A stretch of 64,000 bases of DNA from Phycisphaerales bacterium (lineage in GTDB: Bacteria > Planctomycetota > Phycisphaerae > Phycisphaerales > UBA1924), in assembly GCA_016741915.1 (NCBI GenBank), contig JACVCS010000005.1, positions 1,385 through 65,384 of the forward strand. The letters are read 5' to 3'. Position numbers and translations under genes: made by a program. The notes beneath the pieces are model-generated. The model saw nothing but the letters and a program-made list of their open reading frames with translations. It did no database searches and was not told the origin of the DNA. This document shows positions 1,745 through 44,684 of this stretch, piece by piece. The first letter of the stretch is position 1; the number at the start of each line of letters is the position of its first letter.

Positions 1745-3763
1745 ATGCGTCTACCCGGCAGAAAGATCTGGCGTGCGTTCCCCGAGCTTGACGCCTTCGA
1801 CGACGCACGGGCGGCTCAGTACGTGCGTGCCGCCAGCAGGGCCTTCTGGCTCGTAAAGCTCCTGCGTGGAGCCGCGATGTTCCTCGGCGGCTTGGCTTGC
1901 TTCACGGCCATGGGTCTCGCCGGCGGCATGGTCATGAACACGATGGAAAGGTTCATCAAAGAGCCGATTCTGACACTGCTCGTGGGGCTGACGGCGGTCG
2001 TCGTCGGCGTGGTCAGCATGACCCTGCTCATGATCGTCCGCGATTTCTTCATGCGAAGGCGCGTCCGCAAGGTGATTGCATCGCGTGGCTCGTGCGTCAA
2101 GTGCGGTTACGTGCTCGTCGGGCTTCGCGTTCCCGACGATCTGAACCTCCGCTGCCCCGAATGCGGCACACTGACTGTGCTGAACCTCGAGCGCGACGAA
2201 ACGGCGCTCGACGCCGAGGGTGTGCACCGGCGATTCCTCAGTCGCTACGAGGGCGCAATGCCCGTGAAGTTCTGGACGCCGGGACGAAGACGGGCGGCGA
2301 CGATCACGGCCGTGATCTCGGTTGTTGGGCCGATTGTGCTCGCGCTCGGTTGGTGGGGGATCAACGAGTACCGCCAAGCACGCGATGCAGCACGAGCGAA
2401 GGCGTTGCTTGAGAGTACCTACTCATTCCAGCGTTACTACGACAGCCTTCTGTCGGAAAGTGAACGCGGCAAGACCAGCGAAAGCGCATTCGTCAAGTTG
2501 GACGAACTTTCAGACCTCATCACGAAGCGTGAGCGAATCATCGTTGAAGAGGCGCAGAGCGAGCCGGGTGTTGGGAGCGAAGCGTGGCCCGAGTACACGT
2601 TGCTCTGGGACGAATCGCAGTTCGATCCCGATACAAAGCTGAATGAAGACGATCAACTGCAACAGGTGAATCGACTGCGGCTTTCCGCCGGGAATGCCAA
2701 ACGGGTTGTCGACGCGATCCTGTACTCGACCGAGACGGATCAACTGGCAAACGAGCTGATCAACTCAACGAACTTCGCAGTTGACGCGTCGATGCCGACG
2801 GTTCCCTCGATGGATCTGCGGGGCATGAACATCAGCAGTGCACGCATGGTTTGTCGCTTCGCCGCAGGGGCGATGCGAACGGCCATCATTCGCGGCGATC
2901 GCGCACGGTTCATGCTGTGGTTGCGTGTGGCAGTCCGATGTGCCGAACTTTGCGACAGGTTCCCAACGCTTCTGACGTGGTTGAGCGCTTCGGCGTGCGA
3001 TGCCCAACTCAACGAGTTCATGCTCAAGGCCGGGATTTACGCCGCACCGAAAGAGTGGTTCGACGAGATCGCGCAGATTCTGGCCAGCGGCACAATGAAC
3101 CGCATGACCGACCGCGAGATGTTTCAGGGGGAGAGGATCTGGAGCGGCGAGGTGCTCTGCGGGTACTTCTCTCAACCGAAAGAGATCGCGTCGTTGATGC
3201 AAAGCAGCTCCTCATGGGGAATGCGTACCCCATTGCGCATGGGCTCGTTGGAAGAGAACCTGGCCTATCGGGACATGCTGGAATCTTGGTATCTGCAGTA
3301 CCTCACCGACGATCGATGGGACGTCACCAAACCGCAGACTCCGCTTCCGCCAACCGATCTCGTCTTCGGCCAGGGCTCCGCGAACATGGTGCCGAGGTTT
3401 GCTGCTGCGAAAGTCTGGGGGCGACTCAATCGCGATGTTGTACTGCTCGCTCTGGCGATCGAGCGCTACCGACGCGACGAAGGAAAGCTCCCTGTTTCGC
3501 TCGATGTCATCACGCCGAAGTACATCGACCGGCTGCCGCGTGATCCACTCACAGGCCGAGTCGCCTCGTACAAGCAACTGCCGAGCCAATCCGACAACGC
3601 ACAACCGGCGGAGTTTGTCATCTACCTGTGGGGCGACAATCAAGACGACCAAGGAAACTTCGACCTGTCAAAGCAGTTCCTCGGCCTCGAAGGCCTCAAC
3701 CTCACCCGATCCGGCTTCGATTACCGCCTATACCCCTACGTCACCCCGCTGTACATTCGATAG
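1745..3763 (+). CDS. paralogue 1 of 3: 3-TM membrane protein with cytoplasmic CxxC...CPxC zinc ribbon and large periplasmic domain ending in a GspG-like motif
   Basis: 672 aa. Conserved N-terminus MRLPGRKIWRAFPELDAFDD. Two TM helices, then RDFFMRRRVRKVI and CVKCGYVLVGLRVPDDLNLRCPECG (nt ~2093-2167). A third TM follows (ITAVISVVGPIVLALGWWGI). The ~465-aa C-terminal domain ends in LALAIERYRRDEGKLPVSLDVITPKYIDRLPRDPLTG...VIYLWGDNQDDQG. Confidence 0.8.
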   Translation: MRLPGRKIWRAFPELDAFDDARAAQYVRAASRAFWLVKLLRGAAMFLGGLACFTAMGLAGGMVMNTMERFIKEPILTLLVGLTAVVVGVVSMTLLMIVRDFFMRRRVRKVIASRGSCVKCGYVLVGLRVPDDLNLRCPECGTLTVLNLERDETALDAEGVHRRFLSRYEGAMPVKFWTPGRRRAATITAVISVVGPIVLALGWWGINEYRQARDAARAKALLESTYSFQRYYDSLLSESERGKTSESAFVKLDELSDLITKRERIIVEEAQSEPGVGSEAWPEYTLLWDESQFDPDTKLNEDDQLQQVNRLRLSAGNAKRVVDAILYSTETDQLANELINSTNFAVDASMPTVPSMDLRGMNISSARMVCRFAAGAMRTAIIRGDRARFMLWLRVAVRCAELCDRFPTLLTWLSASACDAQLNEFMLKAGIYAAPKEWFDEIAQILASGTMNRMTDREMFQGERIWSGEVLCGYFSQPKEIASLMQSSSSWGMRTPLRMGSLEENLAYRDMLESWYLQYLTDDRWDVTKPQTPLPPTDLVFGQGSANMVPRFAAAKVWGRLNRDVVLLALAIERYRRDEGKLPVSLDVITPKYIDRLPRDPLTGRVASYKQLPSQSDNAQPAEFVIYLWGDNQDDQGNFDLSKQFLGLEGLNLTRSGFDYRLYPYVTPLYIR

Positions 3764-3867
3764 ATCACACACAGACCAAGTGCATGCGTTGTTGTACAGA
3801 GAACTCGTTCAGGAGAATCACGCGTTGATGCCATCTCACAACGAATCGAGTTCGTAAACACCGAACC

Positions 3868-5886
3868 ATGCGTCTCCCCGGCACCAAAATCTGGCGAGCA
3901 TTCCCCGAGCTTGACCGCTTCAGCGATCAGCAGGGCAAAGCGTTCATCAAAGCCGCCACGAGCGCGTTCTGGCCCGTCCATCTGCTCCGCGGGGTGCTCT
4001 ACCTGGCACTCTCCGCGATTGCCACAGCCCTGGTCCTCGTCTCGGCGATGCTCACCGAATCGCTCATGAACGGCTCGTGGATCCCGTTTTCGGTTCGAAA
4101 CGTCATCACGATCTTCGTCGCGGTCTGCGTTGCGATTCCCGCATTCTCGCTGGGCTTCATCGTCCGCGATCTGCTCTTGCGGCGACGCGTCCGCACCGTC
4201 ATCCAAAGCCAGGGCGTGTGCAAGCATTGCGGCTACCTGCTGCTGGGCATGCGCGTGCCGAGCGATCTGAAACTCACGTGCCCCGAGTGCGGCGACGTCA
4301 CGACCGTCAACCCGGCCCTCGACACGCTCGCCCCTGATCCGGCCAGCGGCGAAGCACGATTTCAAGGCCGAAACGAACCCATCCTGCCGAGCTTTTTCTG
4401 GACCCGCTCGCGCCGACGCGTGTTCAACGTGCTCGCCCTCATCACCCTGCTCGGCCCACCCACCGGCTACGGCGTGTGGTGGCTCTATCGTGAGATCGAC
4501 CTGCGCATACAAGCCTCCCACGCGAAAGAGTTGCTCGCGACCACTGCGAACTTCCGTGCCTATTACCGCAGTATTGTCACGAAGTACGATCCCACGGCGC
4601 TCACGGGCGAAAGTGCGTACGACCGGGCCCAGAAGATATACGACCTGCTGAAGATCGCCGAGATGGTGGCGGTGTTGGAGGCTCCGGAGCAGCCGGGGCC
4701 CGAGCGTAAAGAGCGGTACATCGTCATGCATTTCATCTCGAACCCGCAAGACATGCCTCAATCGCTCTCACCCGAAGACCAACTCAGTCAGGATCTGTGT
4801 GTACGTGATACTGAACGCGTCATCGAGTTGCTCGATCTGAGCGAGATTCAGAGTTTGGCCCGGTCGTTCTCGACGATGAAAGGACGGCAACAGCCCTTTG
4901 ATGATCTTGACAGCGACGATTTCTTTGAGCCGTTTTACGGAAGCCGGAAGCAATCCAGTTCTGATCTTGGCGTGCTTCGACAGCTTGCCCACTTCGCTGC
5001 CGCGAAGATGCGTTTGGCCGCTGACCGCAGCGACCGCGAATCGTTTTGTACATGGCTCATTTTCGGTCTTCAGAACGCTCGGTTGAGCTGCGAACAACGA
5101 ACATTGTTTTCGAGCTCTGTCGGTGTGGCGATAGAACGGATGATGTTTGTTCAGATCAGCAGGGCACTCGGACGCGGTATGCCCAAACAGTGGCTTGGCG
5201 ACATTGCCGATATTCTTCGACGTTACGACGAGAACACCGTCTCGTTGACAGAAGTGTGCGAGGGTGAGCGTGTGCTCTCGCACGAAATGGTGTGCTTGTT
5301 CTGGTCTGATCCCCGAAACATAAAGGAGTACCCCTCGTTCAGATTGCGGAGTGCACTTTGGGGCGTGTCGGGTGAACGTTGCGGCCGCCTCACCGAGAAT
5401 CTCCGCGAGATCGACGATTACCACCGCTGGTTGCAGTCGGTCATCAACGAACGAGGCTTTCAGCGACCCTATCCGCCTTTCATCGAGTCCGGCGCAAATC
5501 TGCTCTTTGTGAATATGAGCATTGAGTCTTTCGAGTACCGCCTGCAGAACATCGAGTTCGAACTCTTCGACCGCCGTATCGTCCAGATCGCCATCGCTAT
5601 CGAACGCTTCCGCGCTCAGCACGGCCAACTGCCCGACACGCTCGAACAACTCGTCCCGGCTTTCATCAACGAGATCCCGAACGATCCGCTCAATCCTCGT
5701 CCGATCTCCTACGCGAAGGCCGACGCAAAGATCTCGCCCTGCGGCTTCGTCCTCTATCTCTGGGGTGACAATCAGGACAACCAAGGCACCCCCAACACCG
5801 GCGGCCAGACCCGTGGCCTCCGCGGCTTCACCAACCTCGCCCCCGGCACCGACTACATCCTATTTCCCGACCTCAACACACAGTAA
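3868..5886 (+). CDS. paralogue 2 of 3: 3-TM Zn-ribbon membrane protein
   Basis: 672 aa. MRLPGTKIWRAFPELDRFSD, VRDLLLRRRVRTVI, CKHCGYLLLGMRVPSDLKLTCPECG (nt ~4219-4293). C-terminus IAIAIERFRAQHGQLPDTLEQLVPAFINEIPNDPLNPRPISY...VLYLWGDNQDNQG. Same architecture as 1745..3763. Confidence 0.8.
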   Translation: MRLPGTKIWRAFPELDRFSDQQGKAFIKAATSAFWPVHLLRGVLYLALSAIATALVLVSAMLTESLMNGSWIPFSVRNVITIFVAVCVAIPAFSLGFIVRDLLLRRRVRTVIQSQGVCKHCGYLLLGMRVPSDLKLTCPECGDVTTVNPALDTLAPDPASGEARFQGRNEPILPSFFWTRSRRRVFNVLALITLLGPPTGYGVWWLYREIDLRIQASHAKELLATTANFRAYYRSIVTKYDPTALTGESAYDRAQKIYDLLKIAEMVAVLEAPEQPGPERKERYIVMHFISNPQDMPQSLSPEDQLSQDLCVRDTERVIELLDLSEIQSLARSFSTMKGRQQPFDDLDSDDFFEPFYGSRKQSSSDLGVLRQLAHFAAAKMRLAADRSDRESFCTWLIFGLQNARLSCEQRTLFSSSVGVAIERMMFVQISRALGRGMPKQWLGDIADILRRYDENTVSLTEVCEGERVLSHEMVCLFWSDPRNIKEYPSFRLRSALWGVSGERCGRLTENLREIDDYHRWLQSVINERGFQRPYPPFIESGANLLFVNMSIESFEYRLQNIEFELFDRRIVQIAIAIERFRAQHGQLPDTLEQLVPAFINEIPNDPLNPRPISYAKADAKISPCGFVLYLWGDNQDNQGTPNTGGQTRGLRGFTNLAPGTDYILFPDLNTQ

Positions 5887-6028
5887 GGCTGCGTGCCTAC
5901 GAATCACATCACGTGTAATGGCAATACCAGATCACGCACGCCCGGTTGTCACCTCGCAGCGCGAAAAGTAAAGCACCACTCGAACAACCGCATCCACTTC
6001 GATGCTTCGTCGGTAGACTCTCGACCGC

Positions 6029-8005
6029 ATGCGTATCCCCTTCACCAAAGTCTGGCGTGCTTTCCCCGAGCTCGACCGATTCGACGACGACCGCTGCAAG
6101 CGATTCGTCAAACGCGCCTCGCAGGCCTTCTGGCTTGTCAAGCTCTTCCGCTTTCTCATGCACCTTCTCGGCATCGCCATCGGTGGCGTCGTTGTCGGGT
6201 TCGTCCTTCAAGCGGCCTTCGTTCTCGCCGACGATTGGCGTCTCCGCTCGCCAAGCCGCGAGATCTTCGTCGCCGCCGCCGCGTCCGTCACCGGCCTGCT
6301 CGCCTTCGTCACGCTGCTCAGCGTCCGCAACCGCTTCCTCCGCAAACGCATCCGCACCATCATCAACCCCCGCGGCACCTGCCTCTCCTGCGGCTACTCC
6401 CTCCTGGGTCTCCCCGTCCCCGACTCCCTCAAACTCCCCTGCCCCGAATGCGGCTTCACCTGCGAAGTCGATCCCTCCCTCGGCGAACTCAGCAGCGACC
6501 CAGCAGGCCGGGCGACATTCACACCCCGGTCCGATCTGATCGCTCAGCGTGTGTTCTGGACGCCCAAGCGGCGGCGTGTGGCAACCTGGTCGGCCGTGGC
6601 GCTGGTCGTGCTCACCGGCGCGGGCGTTGGACTTTCGCTCTGGATCAAGGAACGACGGATCAACGCGGATATCGCGCAGGCGCGGGCGGACTTGCCCATT
6701 CGACCTAGCCTGCAAGACATTTACAACCGAAGTCTGCCCGCCGACCGCCAGGTCGGTGAGACTCGCATGATTGATCAGCTTGTCGCGATGTCGAAGCTGA
6801 TCGCGGATGCCGAGGCCGCGGTACTGCAGTCTGAGACGCCGGTGAAGAACGACATAGGCAACAAGGTTGATGATTTCGGATACGACGCGTTGGATCCGGT
6901 CGAGAACGAGCGGAGCGTTCTCTTGTTGGATGAGTCGAGGCAGCAGGATGCTCGGAAGGAAGTGGGTTGGCGCGCGGAGAACGCCAACCGTGTCCTCGCG
7001 ATCTTGCAACGCACGCAGTTCAAGGTCATCGCGGCTTCGTGTGCAGCTGGGCTGAACTGGGCGGTTGAATATCCCGAGGATGAGACTGAGCGGCTTGGTT
7101 TCGGCCGACTTTCAAACGTAAGGACACAAGTCCTTTCGTGGATTGCCAACGCTAACCAGCGTCTCGCGTGGGAGCGCAACGAGGCGGAGGCTTTTCAGAT
7201 CTGGTGTCGATTCGTCAGAGAGTTGACGAAGTTTTCCGCTCAGAACCTCGGTACCTTGGATCGTCGTATCGCGTTCGCTGTCCCCGCTCATCAAATCACC
7301 CTGCACATGCGGATGCTCGAGAGCCATGTCGAAGCACCGTGGCTCGACATCATCGCGGAGTTCTGGCAACCGCTGGACAACCTCCAGGTCAGCGTGTTTA
7401 TCGAGGGGCAGCACACCGTGCTCCGCCACCACATCGCGAGCTTCTTCGCGAACAAGGAGAGGCTCAAGCAGGGTGTGTTCGGAAGCTCAAGACCCATCGG
7501 AACGTACACGCAGAATCTGACAACCGCCAAGCATCTCTATGAATCGGCTATCGCTGCCTCTCAAGTGCCAGCGTGGACCCGAAGTCCCCTAGACAGCAAA
7601 GCACAATCCGAAAGCTACGCGATCATCGCTCTTCACGCTCCAAGTATGCTGAATGAAGTGAAATCTTTCGAACTTCACGAGCAATCCCGCCAAACCATCC
7701 TCACCATGATCGCCCTCGAACGCCACCGTCTCGCCCACGGCCAGTACCCCGACCAACTCGCCGACCTGCCCAAAGACGCCCTCGCCAACCTCCCCGTCGA
7801 TCTCGCCACAGGCCTCCCCGCGGCTTACCGCCGAATCGACCCGAAGCTCGACCCGAAACACCGCGGCTACCTCCTCTACCTGCTCGGGCCCGATCGCGAG
7901 GACAACGCCGGCAACGACTACATGCCCGACACGTTCCTGTACGCGATCCCTAAGAACAGCATCCCAAAGGGCTCCGACATCGTGCTGAACGGCCGCCCGT
8001 GGTAG
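6029..8005 (+). CDS. paralogue 3 of 3: 3-TM Zn-ribbon membrane protein
   Basis: 658 aa. MRIPFTKVWRAFPELDRFDD, VRNRFLRKRIRTII, CLSCGYSLLGLPVPDSLKLPCPECG (nt ~6379-6454). C-terminus MIALERHRLAHGQYPDQLADLPKDALANLPVDLATGLPAAYRR...YLLYLLGPDREDNAG. Confidence 0.8.
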   Translation: MRIPFTKVWRAFPELDRFDDDRCKRFVKRASQAFWLVKLFRFLMHLLGIAIGGVVVGFVLQAAFVLADDWRLRSPSREIFVAAAASVTGLLAFVTLLSVRNRFLRKRIRTIINPRGTCLSCGYSLLGLPVPDSLKLPCPECGFTCEVDPSLGELSSDPAGRATFTPRSDLIAQRVFWTPKRRRVATWSAVALVVLTGAGVGLSLWIKERRINADIAQARADLPIRPSLQDIYNRSLPADRQVGETRMIDQLVAMSKLIADAEAAVLQSETPVKNDIGNKVDDFGYDALDPVENERSVLLLDESRQQDARKEVGWRAENANRVLAILQRTQFKVIAASCAAGLNWAVEYPEDETERLGFGRLSNVRTQVLSWIANANQRLAWERNEAEAFQIWCRFVRELTKFSAQNLGTLDRRIAFAVPAHQITLHMRMLESHVEAPWLDIIAEFWQPLDNLQVSVFIEGQHTVLRHHIASFFANKERLKQGVFGSSRPIGTYTQNLTTAKHLYESAIAASQVPAWTRSPLDSKAQSESYAIIALHAPSMLNEVKSFELHEQSRQTILTMIALERHRLAHGQYPDQLADLPKDALANLPVDLATGLPAAYRRIDPKLDPKHRGYLLYLLGPDREDNAGNDYMPDTFLYAIPKNSIPKGSDIVLNGRPW

Positions 8006-8041
8006 TCAAAAAACCAGCCAGAAAAGCCACAAAAATCACCC

Positions 8042-8070
8042 TTGCCCACCCGATCGGCTTCTGGTAGAAT
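8042..8070 (+). promoter_or_regulatory. candidate sigma70-type promoter for the RRM RNA-binding protein gene
   Basis: TTGCCC (8042-8047), a 17-nt spacer, then TAGAAT (8065-8070) with TGg immediately upstream of the -10. It sits in the 215-nt intergenic region and implies a leader of about 145 nt before GTG 8221. Confidence 0.4.
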
Positions 8071-8220
8071 TTCGATGCGAGAAGTCTCTCGCGGGCCGGG
8101 CTGTTGATTTCTTGACGAGCGTTCGCCAAAGCCCCGGCCACCCTCCGCGCAGCCATGCAGCCCGAGGTGGCTGTCGTCGGAGTCACGCATTTTCACGCTG
8201 ATTCGGGCGAGGGTTTGATC

Positions 8221-8631
8221 GTGAACATTTACGTCGGCAATCTCCCCTTCAGCACCACCGAACAGGATCTCCAGCAAGTCTTCGGCCAGCACGGCACCGT
8301 CTCCGGCGCGTCGATCATCATCGACCGCGAGACCGGACGCAGCCGCGGCTTCGGCTTCGTCGAAATGCCCAACGACGAAGAGGCCCGTAAGGCCATCGAC
8401 GCACTCAACCAAGCCGACATGGGCGGCCGCGCCCTCGTCGTCAACGAAGCCCGTCCCAAGGAGCCCCGCTCCGGTGGCGGTGGTGGCTTCGGCGGCGGCG
8501 GTGGTGGTCGCGGTGGCTTCGGTGGTGGTGGTGGCGGTCGCGGTGGCTTCGGTGGCGGCCGTGGCGGCGGCGGCGGTCGCGGTGGCGATCGTGGGTACGA
8601 CCGCGGCGGCGATCGCGGCGGCAGCTGGTAA
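8221..8631 (+). CDS. RRM-type RNA-binding protein with Gly/Arg-rich (RGG) tail
   Basis: The ORF was trimmed to GTG 8221, which gives the canonical N-terminus (M)NIYVGNLPF (RNP2). RNP1 is RGFGFVEM. The tail GGGGGFGGGGGGRGGFGGGGGGRGGFGGGRGGGGGRGGDRGYDRGGDRGG is encoded by GGY-rich tandem DNA at ~8465-8625. Confidence 0.85.
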   Translation: MNIYVGNLPFSTTEQDLQQVFGQHGTVSGASIIIDRETGRSRGFGFVEMPNDEEARKAIDALNQADMGGRALVVNEARPKEPRSGGGGGFGGGGGGRGGFGGGGGGRGGFGGGRGGGGGRGGDRGYDRGGDRGGSW

Positions 8632-20690: not shown

Positions 20691-22682
20691 TCAAGGCGTG
20701 TTCAACGCGCGTTCGAGACGTTCGAGCCGGGCTTTCAGTTCGGCGTTCTGTGCGTCACGCTTCTTGAGTTCTTCCTCAAAGCGAACGCGATCGGCTTCAC
20801 GCTGGAGTTGCTGCTGCTTGATCGCCTGGATCGCCACCGCGGTCAGGCGTGAGTAATCCATGCCCGTGACCTTGCCCTCGGCGTCGAAGAAGACCACTTC
20901 GGGGAAGACCTTGGCGACGTCTTCAGCAACGAAGCCGATGTCGTGCTCGCGACCGGGGCGGTCCTTGGCGAAGTCGGGGTTCCAATCGAAGGAAACACCT
21001 TCGAGCTTCAAGAGCTTGTCGAGCGCGTCGGTCATCGGCGCGACGTTGTGCTTGAAGCGGCCCGACGAAGGGACGGCGACGTTGTTCGCCACCACGTTGC
21101 CCGCGACGGTGAGACGCTGGCTGGGCGAGGTGGTGCCGATGCCGACATTGCCGTTGGCGTCGATGAGCATCCGCGAAGCATTCGCGGTACGGTCCACGAT
21201 CTGAAAACTCGCGTTCAGGGGGTTGCCCGGCCCGTTGTTGGTGGACGAAGATTGGATTGACCACGTGCGTGCCGGCACGTTGCCGCCAATCTCGGGGCCG
21301 CCGGTCATGGCGATCTGGGTGTCGGAGTTGCTCCGAACATCCAGGTTGAAGCCCGGCAGGTTTGTGCCCATCCCGACGAAGCCGCTCGGGGTCACGATGA
21401 ATCGCGACGCGTTCGACGTTGCGTCGAAGAGCTCGAAAGCACCGGAAGAGTAGTTGTTGAAGCCGTTGGAACGGAGCAGCCAGTTCCGTCCCTGGGAGGA
21501 GGAGTTCTCGAGCGAAACGACCGTTCCAAAGTTGCTCGGGCTGCCAAATCGGATCTGGTTCTCGTTCTCGGTGAGTTGCACGTGGAGCTTGGCGGTGGGG
21601 GAGGTGGTGCCGATCCCGACGTTCCCCGCGGTATAACTGATGGAGGAGTTTGAGCCGCCGACCCAGGGGCTGAAGGCGCCGGTGATGTTCGCGGGGACGC
21701 CCAGAACGCCGGTCCACGGGACGCTGCCTGCGGAGGTGGCGTTGTTGGCCGAGAGGGCGGTGAATGCGGTCACCGCGGACTGGGCCAGGCGTGCCTGCGG
21801 GACGGCGTTGATGGCTTGACGGGGTGAAAGCGTGACGAAACCGGAGCCGGGGGGAGACTCGACCTCGATGTTCAGCCACAGGGCCTGATCGGATTGGATC
21901 GCAGAGCCGAAGTCGAGCGTGGTGGTGATCACACCGTCGGTGATGTTGGTGAAGTTGCGGGTGATCGGCGGGGCGAGATCGGACGCGGAGGCGGCGAATG
22001 TCGGGTAGCCGCAGAGCGTGAAGCGAACGTTCGCGGGCCCAGTCACCGGCACACCGGCGCTCACGAGCTTGCCTTGATAGGTGAAGGCGTTTGAGACTTG
22101 CTGCGCGGGGGGCTGGTTGAAGGTGATTGACCAGCGAGAGATGCTGCCGGGTGCGGAGTTGTTCCCGTCGTCAGAAATGTAGAGCTTCCAACTGCCGTTC
22201 GGGTCTTTCCCGATGAGCGGGGTGAGCGATGTTTCGTACGGCGCGGGCGGCGCGGGGGAGGGAAGGCTGGCGGCCGCGTTGGAGGAGCAGGCGTAAACGC
22301 CCGAGACGACGTTTGTGCTGAAGGTCGGGAGCGTGGCGGTCCCATCGGGGATAAAGGTCAGGACGTTTGCGAAGGCAACGCCGGTTCCGTTGGTGTTGGC
22401 GATGAGGCTGATCTTTTCTCCGGTTGGCGAGACGAGCAGCACGTTGACATCGCCGAAGAATCCGTGGGTCACGCCTTCGAGTTTAACGCTGATGTACTCG
22501 ATACTCGATGGCGCGCCGGTTACGTTGATCGTGTTGGGGTATGGGAAGCCGCTGCCGAAGACGGGGATCGAAACCCCGCCGGTGCTGGTGTAGGTTTGGG
22601 CGAGCGTTGAAGCCGTGAACAGGCCCACACCCGCGGCGACCGCGAGCGAAGAGAGGAAACGAACAGAACGGGTGATACTCAT
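20691..22682 (-). CDS. secreted fibre-like protein A: P-domain-like N-terminus, FTYQG module, beta-rich middle, S74-like autoprocessing C-terminus, coiled coil
   Basis: 663 aa. Signal peptide LAVAAGVGLFTASTLAQ. P-domain-like region (VLLVSPTGEKISL...NGSWKLYISDDGNNSAPGSISRWSITF). FTYQGKL...ALWLNIEVESPPGSGFVTLSPRQ. GNVGIGTTSP repeats. The C-terminus SSGRFKHNVAP...LEGVSFDW...IGFVAEDVAKVFPEVV...DYSRLTAVAIQAIKQQQ matches the peptidase S74 / intramolecular chaperone pattern. Confidence 0.8.
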   Translation of the reverse strand: MSITRSVRFLSSLAVAAGVGLFTASTLAQTYTSTGGVSIPVFGSGFPYPNTINVTGAPSSIEYISVKLEGVTHGFFGDVNVLLVSPTGEKISLIANTNGTGVAFANVLTFIPDGTATLPTFSTNVVSGVYACSSNAAASLPSPAPPAPYETSLTPLIGKDPNGSWKLYISDDGNNSAPGSISRWSITFNQPPAQQVSNAFTYQGKLVSAGVPVTGPANVRFTLCGYPTFAASASDLAPPITRNFTNITDGVITTTLDFGSAIQSDQALWLNIEVESPPGSGFVTLSPRQAINAVPQARLAQSAVTAFTALSANNATSAGSVPWTGVLGVPANITGAFSPWVGGSNSSISYTAGNVGIGTTSPTAKLHVQLTENENQIRFGSPSNFGTVVSLENSSSQGRNWLLRSNGFNNYSSGAFELFDATSNASRFIVTPSGFVGMGTNLPGFNLDVRSNSDTQIAMTGGPEIGGNVPARTWSIQSSSTNNGPGNPLNASFQIVDRTANASRMLIDANGNVGIGTTSPSQRLTVAGNVVANNVAVPSSGRFKHNVAPMTDALDKLLKLEGVSFDWNPDFAKDRPGREHDIGFVAEDVAKVFPEVVFFDAEGKVTGMDYSRLTAVAIQAIKQQQLQREADRVRFEEELKKRDAQNAELKARLERLERALNTP
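20811..21168. repeat. near-identical ~358-bp tract shared with 26681..27038 (3' ends of fibre genes A and D)
   Basis: Hand alignment at an offset of 5870 nt shows about 7 mismatches. Similarity drops sharply on both sides. Confidence 0.85.
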
Positions 22683-22769
22683 GACAGATTCCTCAGCATT
22701 GTGAGTGACGTTGGGTCAACGGATCGGCTCGGGTGATCGTCGGCGTGTCGGCCGAACGGGTTGATCTGC

Positions 22770-24590
22770 TTATCTGCTTTCGCTGGTGATTTTCTGCAGG
22801 GCCGCCTCGAGCGCTTCAAGGCGGGCCTTGAGCTGTGCATTATCGGCATCTCGTTTGGTGAGTTCGGCCTTGAGCATTTCGAGCTGACGGTCCTTCTCTT
22901 GACGCAGGTCACGCAGGGCTTCGACCATCAGGGCGGTGGTGGCACGTTCGGTGACGAAGCGGGTGCCGGTGGCGTCGGTGCTGACCCAATCTGGGAAGAC
23001 GCGAGCGACTTCGTCGGCCATGAGGCCGAACTGTGTGCCGGGCAGGGCTTGCCCGCTGGCGACGCGATCGTCGTTGTAGAGGAAGGAGTAGCCGCGGAGG
23101 CTCATGAGTTTGTCGAGAGTTCCCGTGAGCGGTGCGATGTCGTGCTTGGCGCGGGGATCAGAGAGGACACCCCATGACCCGCCACCGGGCTTCAGGGCCT
23201 GGCCGTCGGACTGGAAGCGGAAGCGTTCGAAGAGGCCGCCGCCGGTGGAGGTGGTGCAGATTCGGAAGGAGTCTGTGCCGGTGGTACTGTTGTTATCGCC
23301 GATGATCAGACGCAGCTCGGTCGAGTCGGCGGCGACGTTCACCCTCTGAAAGTACATGGCGTCGGTGTTCTCCGCGTTGCTGCCCTGGTCCGCGATGGGG
23401 CCGAAGTTCAGGCGCCCGCTGTTCGCTGAGGTGTTGATCTGGACATTGCCGGTCACGGTGAGTCGCTCGGGCGGGGCCGCACCGGAGGTGTCCCCGATGT
23501 TGACGTTGCCGTTCGCGTTGAGCAGGAGGTTCCAGGCGGAGTTGTAGAAGCCGATGTTGTCGTTGTCGCGCATGCCAACGAATGCTCGGTCGGTTGGGTT
23601 GGTGACGGGAGAAGCGAACCAGATGCCGGGCGAGCCGCCGCTGGTTCCGGACTCTCCGCGAACGCGGATGCGTCCGGGTGCGAGTTGCAACGCGGTGTTG
23701 GCGGTGTTGGCGAAAGCGGCGACACCGGCGGCGGCGTCGACGGACGAGGCCGGAGTGACATAGGTACGGAACCAGTAGTTGAAACCGCTCCCAGCGCGGG
23801 AACCGGCCGCACCGGGGATCGAGTTTGCTGCTTCTTGGATGACGATGTTGCCTGAGAAATCGAAGGTGTAAGGTGTGCCGGCCTGGACGAGGATGTTCGG
23901 AACGACGAGATCGCGTTGAAGTGGGGAAAAGTTGTTGCCGGGCAACAGGGCGGTGAAGGTGCTGATGAGGGGGCCGTTGGTTCCAACACCGATGTACACG
24001 CGCACGGTGAGCGTCTGCGGTGTCTGGCTGAGGGCGGAGCAGACGCGGAGTTGCAGTCGGGTGAGCTTGCCTGAGACGGACGGTGTCCAAGATTGCCACG
24101 CGGGTGAGATGGCACCCACGTTGAAAACGATCTGACCTGCAACGTCCTGCGCTTGATCGAGCGATTCGGGCCCTCCTCGCGTTATGGCGATTCCGGCGAG
24201 CCCTTGCGCGAGCGGCGCGGGTGTGAGGGCCTGGCGGGGTGAGAGGGTTGTGAAGGACCCCGCGCCGGCGGGTGTGCGGACACTGATTTCAACCCAACGA
24301 GGCTGACCATCATCAAAGGCGGCGCCGAAATCCAGAGGAACGGTGAAGAGGCCGTTGGTGACGGTGACGTTGGTGAGGTTGACGGCAGGGGCGATGGGCG
24401 ATCCACCGGTGAGCGTGGAGAAGAGCTCGGCGCGCAGGTCGATAACACCGGTGATCGGCGCGCTCGACGAAGAGAGAGAACCCTGGTAGGTGAAGGCGGT
24501 AGTGGATTGAGCGGCCGCAAACGGAACAAAGAGCAGCGCGGCGCAGAGACTGATGACAAGACCGCGAAGCGTACTGAAAGACATCGACAT
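22770..24590 (-). CDS. secreted fibre-like protein B: no P-domain, FTYQG module, type-2 middle, S74-like C-terminus (type 2)
   Basis: Trimmed to ATG 24588-24590 (MSMSFSTLRGLVISLCAALLFVPFAAAQ). The mature N-terminus goes directly into TAFTYQGSL...RWVEISVRTPAGAGSFTTLSPRQ. C-terminus SDPRAKHDIAPLTGTLDKLMSLRGYSFLYN...FGLMADEVARVFPDWV, followed by a coiled coil. Confidence 0.75.
   Translation of the reverse strand: MSMSFSTLRGLVISLCAALLFVPFAAAQSTTAFTYQGSLSSSSAPITGVIDLRAELFSTLTGGSPIAPAVNLTNVTVTNGLFTVPLDFGAAFDDGQPRWVEISVRTPAGAGSFTTLSPRQALTPAPLAQGLAGIAITRGGPESLDQAQDVAGQIVFNVGAISPAWQSWTPSVSGKLTRLQLRVCSALSQTPQTLTVRVYIGVGTNGPLISTFTALLPGNNFSPLQRDLVVPNILVQAGTPYTFDFSGNIVIQEAANSIPGAAGSRAGSGFNYWFRTYVTPASSVDAAAGVAAFANTANTALQLAPGRIRVRGESGTSGGSPGIWFASPVTNPTDRAFVGMRDNDNIGFYNSAWNLLLNANGNVNIGDTSGAAPPERLTVTGNVQINTSANSGRLNFGPIADQGSNAENTDAMYFQRVNVAADSTELRLIIGDNNSTTGTDSFRICTTSTGGGLFERFRFQSDGQALKPGGGSWGVLSDPRAKHDIAPLTGTLDKLMSLRGYSFLYNDDRVASGQALPGTQFGLMADEVARVFPDWVSTDATGTRFVTERATTALMVEALRDLRQEKDRQLEMLKAELTKRDADNAQLKARLEALEAALQKITSESR
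22905..23228. repeat. near-identical ~324-bp tract shared with 24763..25086 (3' ends of fibre genes B and C)
   Basis: Hand alignment at an offset of 1858 nt shows about a dozen mismatches. The tract encodes the type-2 S74-like domain. Confidence 0.85.
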
Positions 24591-24627
24591 ATCTGTGATC
24601 TCCGAGAGCAATCGTTCGTTTGAGTGT

Positions 24628-26496
24628 TTACTTGGGTTGATCAGCGCGTTCACGAGCGAGTTGGTTGATGAGCGACTTGAGCTGAGCCACTTCGGCTTTC
24701 AAGGCCTCGACTTCACGACGATCGGCGCTGGCCTGGGCCGCGACTTCGTCCTTTTCTCTCCGCAGATCACGCAGGGCCTCGACCATCAGGGCGGTGGTGG
24801 CGCGCTCGGTGACGAAGCGGGTGCCGGTGGCGTCGGTGGAGACCCAATCTGGGAAGACGCGGGCGACTTCGTCGGCCATGAGGCCGAACTGCGTGCCGGG
24901 CAGGGCTTGCCCGCTGGCGACGCGATCGTCGTTGTAGAGGAAGGAGTAGCCGCGGAGGCTCATGAGTTTGTCGAGAGTTCCCGTGAGCGGTGCGATGTCG
25001 TGCTTGGCGCGGGGATCGGAGAGGGCGGCCCATGATCCGCCGCCGGGCTTCAGGGCCTGGCCGTCGGACTGGAAGCGGAAGCGTTCGGTGAGGATGCCGC
25101 TGACGGAAGTGGTGCAGATGCGGAGCGAGTCGAGGTCGTTCGGGCCGCTGTTATCACCGATGACCAGGCGCAGCTCGGTCAAGTCGGTGCCGGCGTTGAT
25201 GCGGGAGAAGTAGACGGCGTCGGTGTTCTCGGCGCCGCTGCCTTCATCGCCGACGGTGCCGAAGGCGAGCTTGCTCGGCACGGAGGTGGTGCTGGTATTG
25301 AGCTGGGCATTGCCCGTGATGGTGAGACGCTCTGGGGGCGCAACACCCGAACCGTCACCGATGGCGATGTTGCCGTTGGCGTTTGCACGCAGGCGCCAGT
25401 CGCCGTTGATGAAGAAGCCGACGTTGTTATCGTCGCGCATTCCGACGAAGGCACGATCGGTCGGGTTGAACGCGGGCGACGCGAACCAGATTCCGGGCGA
25501 GTTGCTGGTCGTGCCGGTATCACCGCGGATGCGTTGACGGCCGGCGGCGAGCTGTGTGGCAGTGCTCGCGGTGAGGGCCAGGGTGGCGATCTGGGCGGTG
25601 CGTGCTTGCGGCACCGGGGTGATCGGCTGACGTGGACTGAGTGTGACGAAGCCCGAGCCGGGGGGCGACTCAACCTCGATGTTGAGCCAGAGTGCCTGGT
25701 CGGTATCGATGGCGGAGGCGAAGTCGAGGGTGGTGGTCACTCTGCCGGAAGAAATCGCGGTGAAAGATCTGGTGATCGCTGGAGCGATGTCGGAGATGTT
25801 TAACGGACGGCTCGGGTCGTTGCAGAGTGTGAAGCGAACGTTGGCATTGCCGTTGATCGGAACTCCAGATGCGGTGAGCACACCCTGATAGGTGAATGCG
25901 GTGGTGACGGTCTGTGGCGGGGCTTGGTCGAAGCTGATCGCCCAACCGCCGTCGAAGGTCCCGTCGTCTCCACTAGGGAAGTCGTCCAACACGTACAGAC
26001 TCCAAGTTCCGTTGGCGTTGGTGCCCAGGAGGGGGGAAAGCGAAGTCAGGTAAGGACCGGCCGGGGCTGGCGCGGGCAGGCTACTCGGCACGGAGTAGAC
26101 GGAACAGGCATAGACCCCGGAGACGACCGGGGCGGTGAATCCTGGAAGCGTCTGTGTGGCGTCGGATGCAAAGATCAAGTTTGCGTTCGAGGCATCGCCG
26201 GAGCCGTTGGTGTTTGCCATGAGCAGAATCTTCTGACCGGCGGGCGAAACCAGCAGCACGTTGACGTCGTTCGCCCACGTGTGGCTGAAGTTTTTCAGTT
26301 GCACCGTGACGTAACTGATCGAGGCGGGCCCGCCGGTGACGTTGATGGTGCTCGGGTAGATCAAGCCAACACCGTTGCTGGATGATGAAGGGAAAGCGAT
26401 GGGTGCTGGATTGCTAAACGTTTGCGCGCAAACCGAAAGCGGTGTGAGCAAAGCCGCGGTAAGCGTGCAGGCGAGAAAGTGGAAACGGGTATTCAT
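24628..26496 (-). CDS. secreted fibre-like protein C: P-domain-like N-terminus, type-2 middle, S74-like C-terminus (type 2)
   Basis: Trimmed to ATG 26494-26496 (MNTRFHFLACTLTAALLTPLSVCAQ). P-domain-like VLLVSPAGQKILL...NGTWSLYVLDDFPSGDDGTFDGGWAISF. ALWLNIEVESPPGSGFVTLSPRQ. The C-terminal ~110 aa are nearly identical to protein B. Confidence 0.8.
   Translation of the reverse strand: MNTRFHFLACTLTAALLTPLSVCAQTFSNPAPIAFPSSSSNGVGLIYPSTINVTGGPASISYVTVQLKNFSHTWANDVNVLLVSPAGQKILLMANTNGSGDASNANLIFASDATQTLPGFTAPVVSGVYACSVYSVPSSLPAPAPAGPYLTSLSPLLGTNANGTWSLYVLDDFPSGDDGTFDGGWAISFDQAPPQTVTTAFTYQGVLTASGVPINGNANVRFTLCNDPSRPLNISDIAPAITRSFTAISSGRVTTTLDFASAIDTDQALWLNIEVESPPGSGFVTLSPRQPITPVPQARTAQIATLALTASTATQLAAGRQRIRGDTGTTSNSPGIWFASPAFNPTDRAFVGMRDDNNVGFFINGDWRLRANANGNIAIGDGSGVAPPERLTITGNAQLNTSTTSVPSKLAFGTVGDEGSGAENTDAVYFSRINAGTDLTELRLVIGDNSGPNDLDSLRICTTSVSGILTERFRFQSDGQALKPGGGSWAALSDPRAKHDIAPLTGTLDKLMSLRGYSFLYNDDRVASGQALPGTQFGLMADEVARVFPDWVSTDATGTRFVTERATTALMVEALRDLRREKDEVAAQASADRREVEALKAEVAQLKSLINQLARERADQPK
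24763..25086. repeat. partner copy of 22905..23228
   Basis: See 22905..23228. Confidence 0.85.
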
Positions 26497-26563
26497 GTTC
26501 GAACTCCTGTGAGGGGATGGCAATCCGGTGGGTGGGGAAATGATGTCGATGCGCGTACACGCG

Positions 26564-28519: not shown

Positions 28520-28618
28520 GATCAAACTCCAGTTTTGAGACGAAGTACACACGGCAGACAGCATGGCAGAAACCGGCTTTCGCGACGCGGGGGTTGCGAT
28601 TCAGGCATTCGGCAAGAG

Positions 28619-31585: not shown

Positions 31586-31693
31586 CGGGCTCCGATCGAC
31601 GAGGGTTTGCGCAAGGGCCCTGCGGCGTGCGCGGGGCACGGCGTGCGAGTCTGCCGGCCCGCGGTGAACGTGTGCAGACCGGGCACGGCGTGT

Positions 31694-42560: not shown

Positions 42561-42633
42561 GGGTAGGTAGCTCAGTTGGTAGAGCACCGCATTGAAAATG
42601 CGGGTGTCGCCGGTTCAAGTCCGGCCCTGCCCA
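42561..42633 (+). tRNA. tRNA-Phe (GAA)
   Basis: Cloverleaf folded by hand. Acceptor GGGTAGG pairs with CCTGCCC. D-arm is GCTCAGTTGGTAGAGC. The anticodon loop is tTGAAAa, giving GAA. T-arm is GCCGG-TTCAAGT-CCGGC. The discriminator is A. No CCA is encoded. Confidence 0.9.
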
Positions 42634-43861: not shown

Positions 43862-43864
43862 GCG

Positions 43865-44560: not shown

Positions 44561-44684
44561 TTCTTTCCACCCCCCTCGCGCGGACGCGAGCAAAGAAAAA
44601 CAGAGACTTGTGAGGGGGGGGAGGGAAAGAAGGAAAGAAGTTGAAAAGTGTGTGTTTTCTCTCTTGTTTTCTGCAAAACTTCTT

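What the first reader, a model, noticed from the sequence alone, without database searches (positions are those of the whole stretch)
1745..8005. Tandem triplication of a 3-TM protein with a cytoplasmic zinc ribbon and a GspG-like periplasmic domain
Three consecutive genes of 658-672 aa share an invariant N-terminus MR(L/I)P..K(I/V)WRAFPELD.F.D and two TM helices. They also share a basic juxtamembrane motif R(D/N)..(L/M)R(R/K)R(V/I)R(K/T)(V/I)I, a zinc ribbon C..CGY.L.G(L/M).VP(D/S)(D/S)L(N/K)L.CPECG, and a third TM. The periplasmic domain of about 460 aa is diverged, and in hand-counted samples it has lower G+C (about 48-53%) than the N-terminal part. Each ends with a helix, then LP..L..L.P..I...P.DP, then Y, then a beta hairpin (YLWG.NQD(D/N)QG). 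That ending resembles the C-terminal fold signature of type II secretion major pseudopilins (GspG). The domain logic (conserved cytoplasmic head and Zn ribbon, variable periplasmic module) looks like a family of transmembrane sensors or receptors with diversified ligand domains. I know of no characterised member.
Basis: partly seen in the sequence, partly recalled or inferred. Interest (0 to 1): 0.6.

Follow-up and report, generated by a model that had tools for sequence, protein, structure and literature searches.

The report
Zinc-ribbon membrane proteins, pilin-like heads
Three neighbouring genes encode diverged copies of an undescribed inner-membrane protein family of Phycisphaerales bacteria, with a zinc-binding module inside the cell and a helical domain capped by a secretion-pilin-like (GspG) head outside it; the helical part is swapped between closely related strains, and the function is still unknown.

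Summary
Three intact co-directional genes (672, 672 and 658 aa; 28-36 % identical) share the MR(L/I)P..WRAFPELD head, two TM helices, a basic stretch, a four-Cys zinc ribbon and a third TM. A roughly 340-aa helical domain and a roughly 115-aa C-terminal module follow.

The C-terminal module is a pseudopilin fold closest to GspG. This rests on TIGR01710/PF08334 hits in 37 of 81 relatives, on PDB profile hits that are all GspG, and on Foldseek top hits to EpsG. It has no prepilin leader, so it cannot polymerise.

The family has no Pfam or NCBIfam model, and I found no paper on it. It is large (at least 551 clusters at 50 % identity) and almost confined to Phycisphaerales. Relatives often form tandem arrays, and some genes encode only the head or only the exported part.

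Three or four near-identical strains (flanks 95-98 % identical) differ in array content. The helical domain of gene 3 is a replaced cassette: 35 % aa identity to one strain, 99 % nt identity to another.

The best reading is a modular transmembrane adaptor or receptor with a hypervariable periplasmic recognition domain. That function is inferred, not shown.

The parts
1745..3763 (+). Gene 1 (672 aa), full-length family member
   Evidence: ORF. Family profile E = 3e-158 over HMM positions 1-659. AF2 model pLDDT 77, pTM 0.68.
3868..5886 (+). Gene 2 (672 aa), full-length family member. It is absent from the syntenic array of strain L001.
   Evidence: In the activated-sludge strain its helical part (4517-5629) is replaced by 1108 other letters.
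6029..8005 (+). Gene 3 (658 aa), full-length family member with a mosaic history
   Evidence: Metatranscriptome contigs map at 6707-6964 (0 mismatches) and 7747-8047.
1745..1846 (+). Cytoplasmic N-terminal head motif of gene 1 (MRLP..KIWRAFPELD.FDD...; RAFPELD at 1772-1792). The same motif lies at 3868-3969 in gene 2 and 6029-6130 in gene 3.
   Evidence: This is the most conserved region of the family: mean pairwise identity 0.58 over 65 members. M1, R2, R10, A11, E14, L15 and D16 are invariant.
1877..2038 (+). TM1-short loop-TM2 hairpin of gene 1 (aa about 45-98)
   Evidence: Hydropathy. AF2 helices 35-67 and 75-112. Sequence poorly conserved, 0.19.
2039..2167 (+). Basic juxtamembrane stretch plus four-Cys zinc ribbon of gene 1 (C117, C120, C137, C140; ribbon at 2093-2167). 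The ribbon of gene 2 is at 4219-4293 and that of gene 3 at 6380-6454.
   Evidence: The four Cys plus P138, E139 and G126 are invariant in 65 members. Coordinates. Only generic zinc-finger matches in the PDB.
2294..2362 (+). TM3 of gene 1 (aa 184-206), preceded by RRR
   Evidence: AF2 helix 179-224.
2363..3379 (+). Periplasmic all-helical (alpha-solenoid/TPR-like) domain of gene 1 (aa 207-545); the variable module
   Evidence: About 14 helices with pLDDT mostly 85-95. Only weak helical-repeat hits in the PDB and BFVD. Family mean identity 0.24.
3380..3760 (+). C-terminal GspG-like pseudopilin-fold module of gene 1 (aa 546-672). The same module lies at 5521-5883 in gene 2 and 7637-8002 in gene 3.
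   Evidence: AF2 model pLDDT 87, pTM 0.82: a long helix plus a beta-sheet. Foldseek top 5 hits are V. cholerae EpsG, prob 0.95-0.99, TM 0.49-0.54. The top 8 PDB profile hits are all GspG. TIGR01710/PF08334 hit 37 of 81 family modules.
6750..7660 (+). Replaced helical cassette inside gene 3 (aa about 240-545)
   Evidence: Compared with L001, this stretch is 42-61 % nt and 35 % aa identical, while the rest of the gene is 90-99 % nt identical and the flanking genes 96 %. Compared with the activated-sludge strain, 6537-7690 is 99.0 % identical while the flanks are 94.7 % (Fisher p = 1e-12).

Best explanation
**What it is (shown).** The three genes are old, intact paralogues of an unannotated protein family almost confined to Phycisphaerales (Planctomycetota). 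Each protein is modular and has five parts:
1. A cytoplasmic head made of an invariant N-terminal motif (MRxx...RAFPELD.F.DE.C) and a four-Cys zinc ribbon. The two are held together at the membrane by a TM hairpin.
2. A third TM helix.
3. A periplasmic alpha-solenoid of about 340 aa.
4. A C-terminal pseudopilin-fold head homologous to the globular part of the type II secretion major pseudopilin GspG.
5. No class III leader and no hydrophobic alpha1-N helix. It therefore cannot be processed by a prepilin peptidase or polymerise into a filament.

**How it most likely works (inferred).** The protein is a fixed inner-membrane adaptor or receptor. The two conserved ends bind conserved partners. The zinc-ribbon head binds a cytoplasmic protein, as the membrane-tethered zinc ribbons of ZitP and GltJ do. 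The pilin-like head probably needs calcium and either stabilises the domain or docks to an envelope component. The helical middle is the specificity-determining surface. It diversifies by duplication into tandem arrays and by recombinational replacement of whole cassettes between strains. Head-only and exported-part-only genes in relatives suggest that the two halves can also work as separate, interacting proteins.
For: **Architecture and topology.**. The periplasmic-only relatives carry signal peptides, lipoboxes or a single anchor, so that part is exported.

**GspG homology of the C-terminal module.**
- The only recurring families among 81 modules are TIGR01710 and PF08334 (37 of 81; best E = 2e-6).
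- The PDB profile's top 8 hits are all GspG, in register over the motifs 'ryrl..g.YP..L..L' and 'P.DPW.g.p..Y....g.y.LYS.GaDG'.
- Foldseek's top hits are EpsG with prob 0.95-0.99 over 122 columns.

**Family size and range.** 551 representatives at E <= 1e-30, and the 150 listed all have lengths close to the query's, nearly all with a match over almost the whole profile. There are 199 confirmed stretches in species-representative genomes, almost all Phycisphaerales.

**Modularity (examples).** Among 80 loci:
- 15 have 2-3 full-length copies in tandem.
- 17 have an adjacent exported-part-only gene.
- 13 have head-only genes, including two in a complete chromosome (L078).

**Conservation pattern across the family.** Head 0.58, zinc ribbon 0.49, GspG-like 0.38, helical 0.24.

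**Between strains whose flanks are 95-98 % identical.**
- Head identity is 79-100 % aa; helical identity is 35-53 % aa.
- Gene content differs.
- The gene 3 cassette is replaced relative to L001, yet 99 % identical to another strain whose flanks are 94.7 % identical.

**Purifying selection.** dN/dS is 0.05-0.35 in orthologue comparisons.

**Transcription.** Gene 3 is seen in metatranscriptome contigs.

**Precedent.** Membrane-tethered zinc ribbons act as partner-binding switches in GltJ and ZitP (PMC11135422).
Against: - No ligand, partner or output domain is identified.
- The cytoplasmic part is only about 125 residues and matches no signalling family.
- The neighbours are housekeeping genes: 3-hydroxyacyl-CoA dehydrogenase, RecX, methylmalonyl-CoA mutase and MgtC. 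Gene context therefore gives no functional clue.
- The window's own three C-terminal modules do not reach E <= 0.1 against the GspG models. Member 1 was shown explicitly, and searches cover the whole proteins. The homology rests on family-level transitivity and on a predicted structure. The Foldseek E-values are weak (0.05-0.15).
- Extreme between-strain divergence is more typical of conflict or recognition loci than of ordinary sensors.
- The strain comparisons use metagenome contigs, which can be chimeric.
Confidence: 0.45

Rival explanations
1. Accessory or regulator of a type IV filament machine. The anchored, non-polymerising GspG-like head acts as a 'dummy subunit'. It docks on the assembly platform, endopilus or secretin of a T2SS or T4P-like system. 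Planctomycetes encode many pilin-like proteins. The variable helical domain would select cargo or partners, and the zinc-ribbon head would contact the cytoplasmic side.
For: The head is specifically GspG-like rather than a generic pilin. The G-x-D-G-x-D-N-G-G loop, nearly invariant in the family, aligns with the 'GADG' segment of XcpT. By my own reading, that segment corresponds to the PulG/OutG calcium loop around D117 (PMC13081927). ZitP, a zinc-ribbon membrane protein, controls pilus biogenesis (cited in PMC11135422).
Against: None of the recurrent neighbours annotated in the 80 loci is a gsp/pil gene, and none was found among the window ORFs scanned. The alpha1-N helix and the conserved Glu5 that mediate pilin-pilin and pilin-platform contacts are missing.
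Confidence: 0.2
2. Envelope conflict locus. The periplasmic helical domain is either a target, decoy or barrier for invaders that cross the periplasm (phage ejection proteins, bacteriocins, contact-dependent or T6SS effectors), or a self/non-self recognition surface. It would be kept polymorphic by frequency-dependent selection, and signalling would be secondary or absent.
For: Old allele classes are reassorted between strains. The gene 3 cassette is 35 % aa identical to L001 but 99 % nt identical to a strain with more diverged flanks. The array gains and loses genes among genomes whose flanks are 95-98 % identical. Tandem arrays of divergent paralogues are common. The variable part has lower G+C.
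Against: No PADLOC match. No phage-like fold matches. There are no mobile-element genes next to the array. The array sits at a chromosomal site that is conserved across Phycisphaerales, next to 3HCDH in 33 of 80 loci, so the family is vertically inherited. dN/dS stays below 1, although saturation limits that test.
Confidence: 0.2
3. Anti-sigma-factor-like transmembrane regulator. The zinc-binding cytoplasmic head sequesters a transcription factor and releases it when the periplasmic domain senses a signal.
For: A cytoplasmic zinc module, a TM segment and a variable periplasmic domain match the general layout of many anti-sigma factors. An ECF sigma gene with an RskA-type anti-sigma gene lies next to the family in L002, and an RskA-like neighbour recurs in 5 loci including L053.
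Against: No ZAS HxxxCxxC motif and no anti-sigma Pfam hit in 65 members. No sigma-factor gene is adjacent in the window or in most loci. The neighbouring sigma/anti-sigma pair in L002 is already complete and lies on the opposite strand.
Confidence: 0.05
4. Redundant or decaying duplicates with no specific role, whose middle parts drift freely.
For: Low conservation of the helical domain and its lower G+C.
Against: All three frames are intact. The domain length is preserved (a cassette of 1108 letters replaces one of 1111). dN/dS is 0.18-0.35 in the helical part. The AF2 confidence of the helical domain is high. Hundreds of species keep full-length copies. Gene 3 has RNA contigs.
Confidence: 0.03

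Closest known systems
GspG / PulG / EpsG / XcpT, the major pseudopilin of the type II secretion system (Pfam PF08334, TIGR01710; PDB 4lw9, 3fu1, 2kep, 3g20, 1t92)
   Same: The last 115 aa or so have the same fold: an alpha1-C helix packed on a small antiparallel sheet. They also share the motif pattern (..Y.L..G.YP..L..L......P.DPW....Y.......Y.L.S.G.DG..). The GspG models are the only families that recur for this module.
   Different: There is no class III signal peptide, no G/F..xE processing and methylation site, and no hydrophobic alpha1-N helix. The module sits at the C-terminus of a 660-aa three-TM protein, behind a 340-aa helical domain. It is not linked to gsp genes, and there is an extra helix (aa 96-107 of the module model) before the last strand. 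It therefore resembles GspG in fold but cannot work as a filament subunit.
Membrane-tethered zinc-ribbon adaptors ZitP (Caulobacter) and GltJ (Myxococcus) (PMC11135422)
   Same: A small four-Cys zinc ribbon lies in the cytoplasm, joined through a TM segment to a periplasmic domain. In the known cases the ribbon is a protein-binding switch (PopZ; MglB and the linker).
   Different: There is no detectable sequence relationship: the GltJ/AgmX ZnR (7zok) scores only E = 0.39 against the family's ribbon profile. Here the ribbon lies between TM2 and TM3 and is paired with a separate invariant N-terminal motif. The partner is unknown.
Proteins with conserved termini and a recombining hypervariable centre (flagellin central domains, type IV pilin allele groups); from general knowledge, an analogy only
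   Same: The conserved ends would contact conserved partners, and the centre is replaced by recombination between strains. Allele classes are older than the strains that carry them.
   Different: Those are surface filaments exposed to phages and hosts. This protein is predicted to be an inner-membrane protein whose variable part faces the periplasm.
Zinc-ribbon-anchored, uncleavable GspG-like proteins, and the same Phycisphaerales family, noted by earlier agents of this scan (e1-3906087, e1-955921, e1-1211110, e1-2796655); unpublished AI notes
   Same: The layout is the same: cytoplasmic zinc ribbon, then TM, then a pseudopilin head. Note e1-3906087 describes this very family in another genome as an array reshuffled between close strains.
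   Different: The PVC and Acidobacteria families in the other notes are short (about 200 aa) and have no helical insert or N-terminal TM hairpin. I could not compare sequences, so a common origin is untested.

Membership tests
GspG / type II secretion major pseudopilin (PF08334, TIGR01710) | N-terminal class III signal peptide with a prepilin-peptidase site (G|F..xE) and a hydrophobic alpha1-N helix | tested here: not met
   The N-terminus is MR(L/I)P..K.WRAFPELD. The GspG-like module begins at about aa 546. No N_methyl or pilin-leader family was hit in the three proteins or in 65 relatives.
GspG / type II secretion major pseudopilin (PF08334, TIGR01710) | Sequence match to the T2SSG / typeII_sec_gspG models | tested here: inconclusive
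   37 of 81 family C-terminal modules match at E <= 0.1 (best 2.2e-6 and 2.8e-6), and no other family recurs. The window's three whole proteins give no T2SSG or TIGR01710 match at E <= 1, and gene 1's C-terminal module alone gives none at E <= 0.1. The family profile against the PDB puts GspG in the top 8 places, best E = 0.0013.
GspG / type II secretion major pseudopilin (PF08334, TIGR01710) | Pilin fold: a long helix packed against an antiparallel beta-sheet | tested here: met
   AF2 model of aa 546-672: pLDDT 87, helix 4-34 and strands 63-66, 79-84 and 114-118. Foldseek top hits are EpsG 4lw9 and 3fu1, prob 0.95-0.99, TM about 0.5. This is a predicted structure, not a solved one.
GspG / type II secretion major pseudopilin (PF08334, TIGR01710) | Calcium-binding loop after the second strand (PulG/OutG D117, D125) | tested here: inconclusive
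   The family has the nearly invariant residues G630, D631, D634 and G637, and D659 is invariant. The G.DG segment aligns with 'GADG' of XcpT. That this corresponds to the region of PulG D117 (PMC13081927) is my own mapping. The second ligand position is not alignable, and metal binding was not tested.
GspG / type II secretion major pseudopilin (PF08334, TIGR01710) | Encoded with other gsp genes (E, F, D, minor pseudopilins) | tested here: not met
   The neighbours in the window are a TPR protein, 3HCDH, an RRM protein, an FAA hydrolase, an SDR and SmpB. The recurrent neighbours in 80 loci are housekeeping genes. No gsp/pil genes were found among the other large ORFs scanned in the window.
ZitP/GltJ-type membrane-tethered zinc-ribbon adaptors | Four-Cys zinc ribbon on the cytoplasmic side next to a TM segment | tested here: met
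   C117, C120, C137 and C140 are invariant in 65 members. The ribbon lies between TM2 and TM3 in a K/R-rich loop. AF2 shows short beta-hairpins at 134-164. Zinc binding itself was not tested.
ZitP/GltJ-type membrane-tethered zinc-ribbon adaptors | Sequence homology to the ZitP or GltJ zinc ribbon, or a GYF domain | tested here: not met
   The ribbon profile against the PDB gives only generic zinc-finger hits; 7zok (AgmX/GltJ ZnR) scores E = 0.39. No GYF or MJ0042-type Pfam hits.
Zinc-binding anti-sigma factors (ZAS) | HxxxCxxC motif, an anti-sigma domain and an adjacent ECF sigma gene | tested here: not met
   No such motif or Pfam hit. No sigma gene flanks the array in the window. An ECF sigma/RskA pair lies beside the family in L002, and an RskA-like neighbour recurs in only 5 of the 80 loci.

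The most novel reading that the evidence does not exclude
Phycisphaerales may carry a previously unrecognised periplasmic recognition system. In this reading, arrays of fixed inner-membrane proteins present interchangeable alpha-solenoid cassettes on a non-polymerising pseudopilin scaffold. Old cassette classes are exchanged between strains by recombination under frequency-dependent selection from phages, bacteriocins or neighbouring cells. Engagement of a cassette is reported to the cytoplasm through the invariant N-terminal motif and zinc-ribbon head. That would make it a bacterial counterpart of a polymorphic receptor repertoire, built from a secretion-pilin fold.
Probability: 0.15. Interest if true: 0.8.

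Novelty: new variant of a known kind. Interest (0 to 1): 0.55.

Why it matters
Pilin and pseudopilin folds are known almost only as filament subunits. Here a GspG-type head has been made into the permanent cap of a three-TM, zinc-ribbon-bearing membrane protein. The resulting family is large (hundreds of clusters at 50 % identity), lineage-wide and wholly unannotated.

Two features make the family a tractable entry point into the poorly understood envelope biology of Planctomycetota. Its modular split forms (head-only and exported-part-only genes) point to a testable interaction between the two halves. The strain-level replacement of the helical cassette points to a specificity surface under strong selection.

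It also gives database curators a clear case for a new family model. If the variable domain proves to be a recognition surface, it would be a new example of recombination-driven receptor diversity in bacteria.

Tried and rejected
I therefore obtained no paralogue count in the window's own genome and no phylogenetic profile against T2SS/T4P genes.
- Pfam and NCBIfam on the whole proteins gave only sub-threshold zinc-ribbon noise.
- Foldseek of the whole-protein model gave only weak helical-repeat, TPR or designed-repeat hits (E >= 0.1) against the PDB and BFVD. The helical domain therefore has no informative structural relative.
- The whole-protein profile against the PDB gave nothing significant. 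A weak YceG/MltG-like hit (2r1f, E = 1.2) was dismissed as chance.
- The zinc-ribbon profile against the PDB was dominated by spurious 'CPECGK' matches to C2H2 consensus fingers.
- PADLOC gave no hit.
- The word-indexed protein search found only 8 relatives of gene 1 and 2 of the short form, which misleadingly suggests a rare family. The exhaustive profile search corrected this.
- The metagenome-contig scan with gene 3 found no close relative.
- The source of the divergent L001 gene 3 cassette was not found. It is not derived from any paralogue in either array, and its nearest relative remains window gene 3 at 35 %.
- Five literature searches found no description of the family or of zinc-ribbon-anchored pseudopilin heads.
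- The five fibre genes at 20.7-30.2 kb have similar lengths, so I checked whether they are further paralogues. They are not; they carry P-domain and S74 chaperone domains.

Full report
**Observation**

They align over their full length at 28-36 % identity.

All three carry the same elements:
- RAFPELD at aa 10-16.
- The basic stretch R(D/N)..(L/M)R(R/K)R(V/I)R at aa 99-109.
- The ribbon C..CGY.L.G(L/M).VP..L.L.CPECG at aa 117-142.

Hydropathy gives a TM hairpin (about 45-67 and 75-98) and a third TM helix (about 184-206) preceded by RRR.

The G+C drop in the C-terminal 460 codons is real but smaller than stated. It is 0.57-0.59 against 0.64-0.66 in the head, with the whole window at 0.639. It is not 48-53 %.

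**Topology**

The N-terminal 40 residues and the TM2-TM3 loop are rich in K/R (6-10 and 14-18 residues), and TM3 is preceded by RRR. The positive-inside rule therefore places the head and ribbon in the cytoplasm and the last 460 aa or so outside.

There is independent support. In relatives the same C-terminal part occurs as a separate gene of 450-530 aa. Its N-terminus is a Sec signal peptide, a lipobox (for example ...VLAGCSD...LLPACSD) or a single anchor helix.

**The C-terminal module is a pseudopilin fold closest to GspG**

Four tests agree.
1. Scanning 81 C-terminal modules from the family one by one, the only families that recur are TIGR01710 (typeII_sec_gspG) and PF08334 (T2SSG). Each is hit by 37 of 81, with best E = 2.8e-6 and 2.2e-6. 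With whole proteins, 7 of 65 hit T2SSG.
2. A 112-position profile of the module searched against all PDB sequences returns GspG proteins in the first eight places: XcpT 2kep at E = 0.0013, then 3g20, 1t92, 3gn9, 4lw9, 3fu1 and 5wda. The alignments are in register over the alpha1-C helix ('leryrl..grYPes..L..Lv') and over 'lP.DPW.g.p..Y....g.y.LYS.GaDG'.
3. An AlphaFold2 model of aa 546-672, built on 81 sequences, has pLDDT 87 and pTM 0.82. It shows a 31-residue helix followed by a small sheet.
4. Foldseek of that model against the PDB gives V. cholerae EpsG as the top five hits (prob 0.95-0.99, TM 0.49-0.54, 122 aligned columns). Type IV pilins and other GspG structures follow.

There are caveats. 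The window's three whole proteins give no GspG-model match at E <= 1, and gene 1's module alone gives none at E <= 0.1. The Foldseek E-values are weak (0.05-0.15). The structure is predicted, not solved.

What is missing matters just as much. There is no class III leader, no G/F..xE site and no hydrophobic alpha1-N helix. The module cannot be a filament subunit.

The loop G-x-D-G-x-D-N-G-G is nearly invariant, and D659 is invariant. The G.DG segment aligns with 'GADG' of XcpT. By my own mapping that is the region of the calcium ligand D117 of PulG/OutG (PMC13081927). Calcium binding is plausible but untested.

**The rest of the protein**

The full-length AF2 model (pLDDT 77, pTM 0.68) predicts about 14 helices between TM3 and the GspG-like helix, mostly at pLDDT 85-95. 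Its only structural neighbours are TPR-like and designed helical repeats at E >= 0.1. No residue in this domain is conserved in a pattern that suggests catalysis. I read it as a binding scaffold.

The ribbon profile finds only generic zinc fingers in the PDB. No Pfam, NCBIfam or PADLOC family covers the head or the helical domain.

**Family size, range and modularity**

The word-indexed search found only 8 relatives. The exhaustive profile search of 1.84 billion cluster representatives found 551 at E <= 1e-30. The 150 listed are 594-735 aa long, and nearly all match over almost the whole profile.

In species-representative genomes the pattern [YWH]RAFPELDx[FY] gave 199 confirmed stretches. The 80 kept are almost all Phycisphaerales or Phycisphaeraceae MAGs. 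A few bins carry other labels and may be mis-assigned. One close relative (L004, gene 3 head 96 % identical) is a Phycisphaerales MAG. The second and third refutation conditions (a clear enzyme hit; no conservation outside this genome) therefore also fail.

Running the family HMM over the ORFs of those 80 loci shows the following:
- 15 loci have two or three full-length copies in tandem.
- 17 have an adjacent exported-part-only gene.
- 13 have head-only genes of 163-200 aa (N-motif, TM hairpin, ribbon, short tail).
- The head-only genes include two in tandem in a complete chromosome (L078).

Some split forms in MAGs could be frameshifts, but the L078 pair and the signal-peptide forms are clean. 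The family is therefore built from two separable modules that also exist as independent genes. This suggests that they interact.

**Context**

The array sits at a conserved chromosomal site. A 3-hydroxyacyl-CoA dehydrogenase gene lies upstream in 33 of 80 loci. RecX, methylmalonyl-CoA mutase and MgtC/DUF4010 recur nearby. None of the recurrent neighbours that I annotated is a type II secretion or type IV pilus gene, and none was found among the other large ORFs scanned in the window. Context therefore shows vertical inheritance but not function.

**Conservation pattern and strain-level turnover**

Across 65 members, mean pairwise identity by region is:
- N-terminal motif: 0.58.
- Ribbon region: 0.49.
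- GspG-like core: 0.38.
- Helical domain: 0.24.
- TM helices: 0.19-0.21.

The contrast is much sharper between close strains.

*Strain L001.* Contig L001 is 96 % identical to the window in the flanking genes (1590 nt and 712 nt). Its array, however, is a 530-aa short form, then a gene 1 orthologue (83 % nt), then a gene 3 orthologue. It has no gene 2, and the window has no short form. Gene 3 is a mosaic. Codons 1-210 and 560-658 are 90-99 % nt identical. Codons about 240-545 are 42-61 % nt and 35 % aa identical, with saturated dS.

*Activated-sludge strain.* A third strain (L084 and the activated-sludge runs X1 and X2) has 3HCDH at 98 %. It carries a short form, a gene 1 relative (head 79-86 %, helical 40 %) and a gene 2 relative (helical 53 %). 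In one of its contigs the helical part of gene 2 (4517-5629) is replaced by 1108 other letters. Yet its gene 3 segment 6537-7690 is 99.0 % identical to the window (11 differences in 1154 nt), while its flanks are 94.7 % identical (Fisher p = 1e-12).

Cassette identity is thus incongruent with flank identity. This is the signature of recombinational exchange of old allele classes. The donor of the L001 cassette is not another paralogue of either array.

Orthologue dN/dS stays at 0.05-0.35, so the copies are under purifying selection and are not decaying. Metatranscriptome contigs from activated sludge cover parts of gene 3, one of them at 258/258 identity inside the cassette. This is weak evidence of expression, because DNA carry-over cannot be excluded.

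**Mechanism**

Three things are shown:
- A modular three-TM protein with a conserved cytoplasmic head and zinc ribbon.
- An exported hypervariable alpha-solenoid.
- A conserved, non-polymerising GspG-fold cap.

The following is inferred:
- The two conserved ends bind conserved partners. Membrane-tethered zinc ribbons do exactly this in ZitP (PopZ) and GltJ (MglB and the linker) (PMC11135422).
- The helical middle is the specificity surface.
- I commit to 'fixed transmembrane adaptor or receptor with an exchangeable periplasmic recognition domain' at about 0.45.

The main rivals are:
- A filament-machine accessory that uses the dummy pseudopilin head to dock on a T2SS or T4P-like apparatus (0.2). 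The specifically GspG-like head favours this; the absence of linkage and of alpha1-N weakens it.
- A conflict or recognition locus in which the variable domain is a target, decoy or self-marker (0.2). The allele reassortment favours this; the housekeeping location and the lack of any defence signature weaken it.
- An anti-sigma-like role (0.05).
- Simple decay (0.03).

**Comparison and novelty**

The protein is not a member of the GspG family in the functional sense, because the leader, alpha1-N and gsp-linkage tests fail. Its C-terminal module is homologous to the GspG globular domain. It resembles ZitP and GltJ only in layout.

No paper in the searched library describes it. Earlier AI notes of this scan had flagged the same family in another Phycisphaerales genome, with the same 'reshuffled array' conclusion. 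They had also flagged shorter zinc-ribbon-anchored GspG-like proteins in other phyla. I treated these as leads. The first claim I re-derived independently here; the second I could not test.

I rate the finding as a new variant of a known kind: a pilin fold reused as a fixed membrane-protein cap, in an unannotated lineage-wide family. Interest is moderate to high (0.55). The anatomy and population behaviour are solid and unusual, but the function remains open.

Noticed in passing
window 30254-31639 (-): A 461-aa polytopic membrane protein at the head of the fibre-gene cluster ends with CTNCRYDLTGLTSQLCPECG. This is the same C..C.Y.L.GL...CPECG ribbon signature as in the three paralogues, but C-terminal and without the N-terminal motif. 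Similar ribbons occur in unrelated ORFs of L026, L067 and L003. Pfam gives only a weak DZR_2 hit.
   Followed up: partly
window 20691-30208 (-): Five co-directional genes of 529-666 aa looked at first like further paralogues because of their length. They belong to a different family. The one scanned by Pfam (20691-22682) has a proprotein-convertase P-domain and a Peptidase_S74 chaperone domain, and their translations look alike.
   Followed up: partly
window 3861-3915 and 1743-1803; L001 5270-5324; L084 2038-2089: The first 50 nt or so of the paralogues, including a few bases upstream of the ATG, are 92-94 % identical between non-orthologous copies (gene 2 of the window against the gene 1-type genes of L001 and L084). 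Synonymous divergence in the N-terminal motif (dS 0.6-1.0) is lower than in most of the rest of the paralogues (about 0.7 to above 2.9). This could reflect gene conversion or selection on the 5' end.
   Followed up: partly
L001 3546-5138; L084 315-1907: Sister strains carry a 530-aa gene with a signal peptide and only the exported part, between 3HCDH and the gene 1 orthologue. It is absent from the window, where the 3HCDH-gene 1 spacer is only 152 nt.
   Followed up: yes
window 8042-8070 and 8155-8631 (+): A promoter-like site (TTGCCC-17-TAGAAT with an extended TG) lies just after gene 3 and upstream of an RRM protein with a Gly/Arg-rich tail. Many metagenome contigs pile up on the GGY repeat at about 8470-8590 with joints, which suggests repeat-length variation or cross-mapping.
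   Followed up: no
window 42575-46898 (-): A phage-type integrase (429 aa) lies next to a 737-aa Prim-Pol protein, which suggests an integrated mobile element about 35 kb from the array.
   Followed up: no
L090 378-4025 (-): In a sister strain a 1215-aa gene with faint NACHT and LRR hits lies a few kb upstream of the syntenic RecX-TPR-3HCDH block.
   Followed up: no
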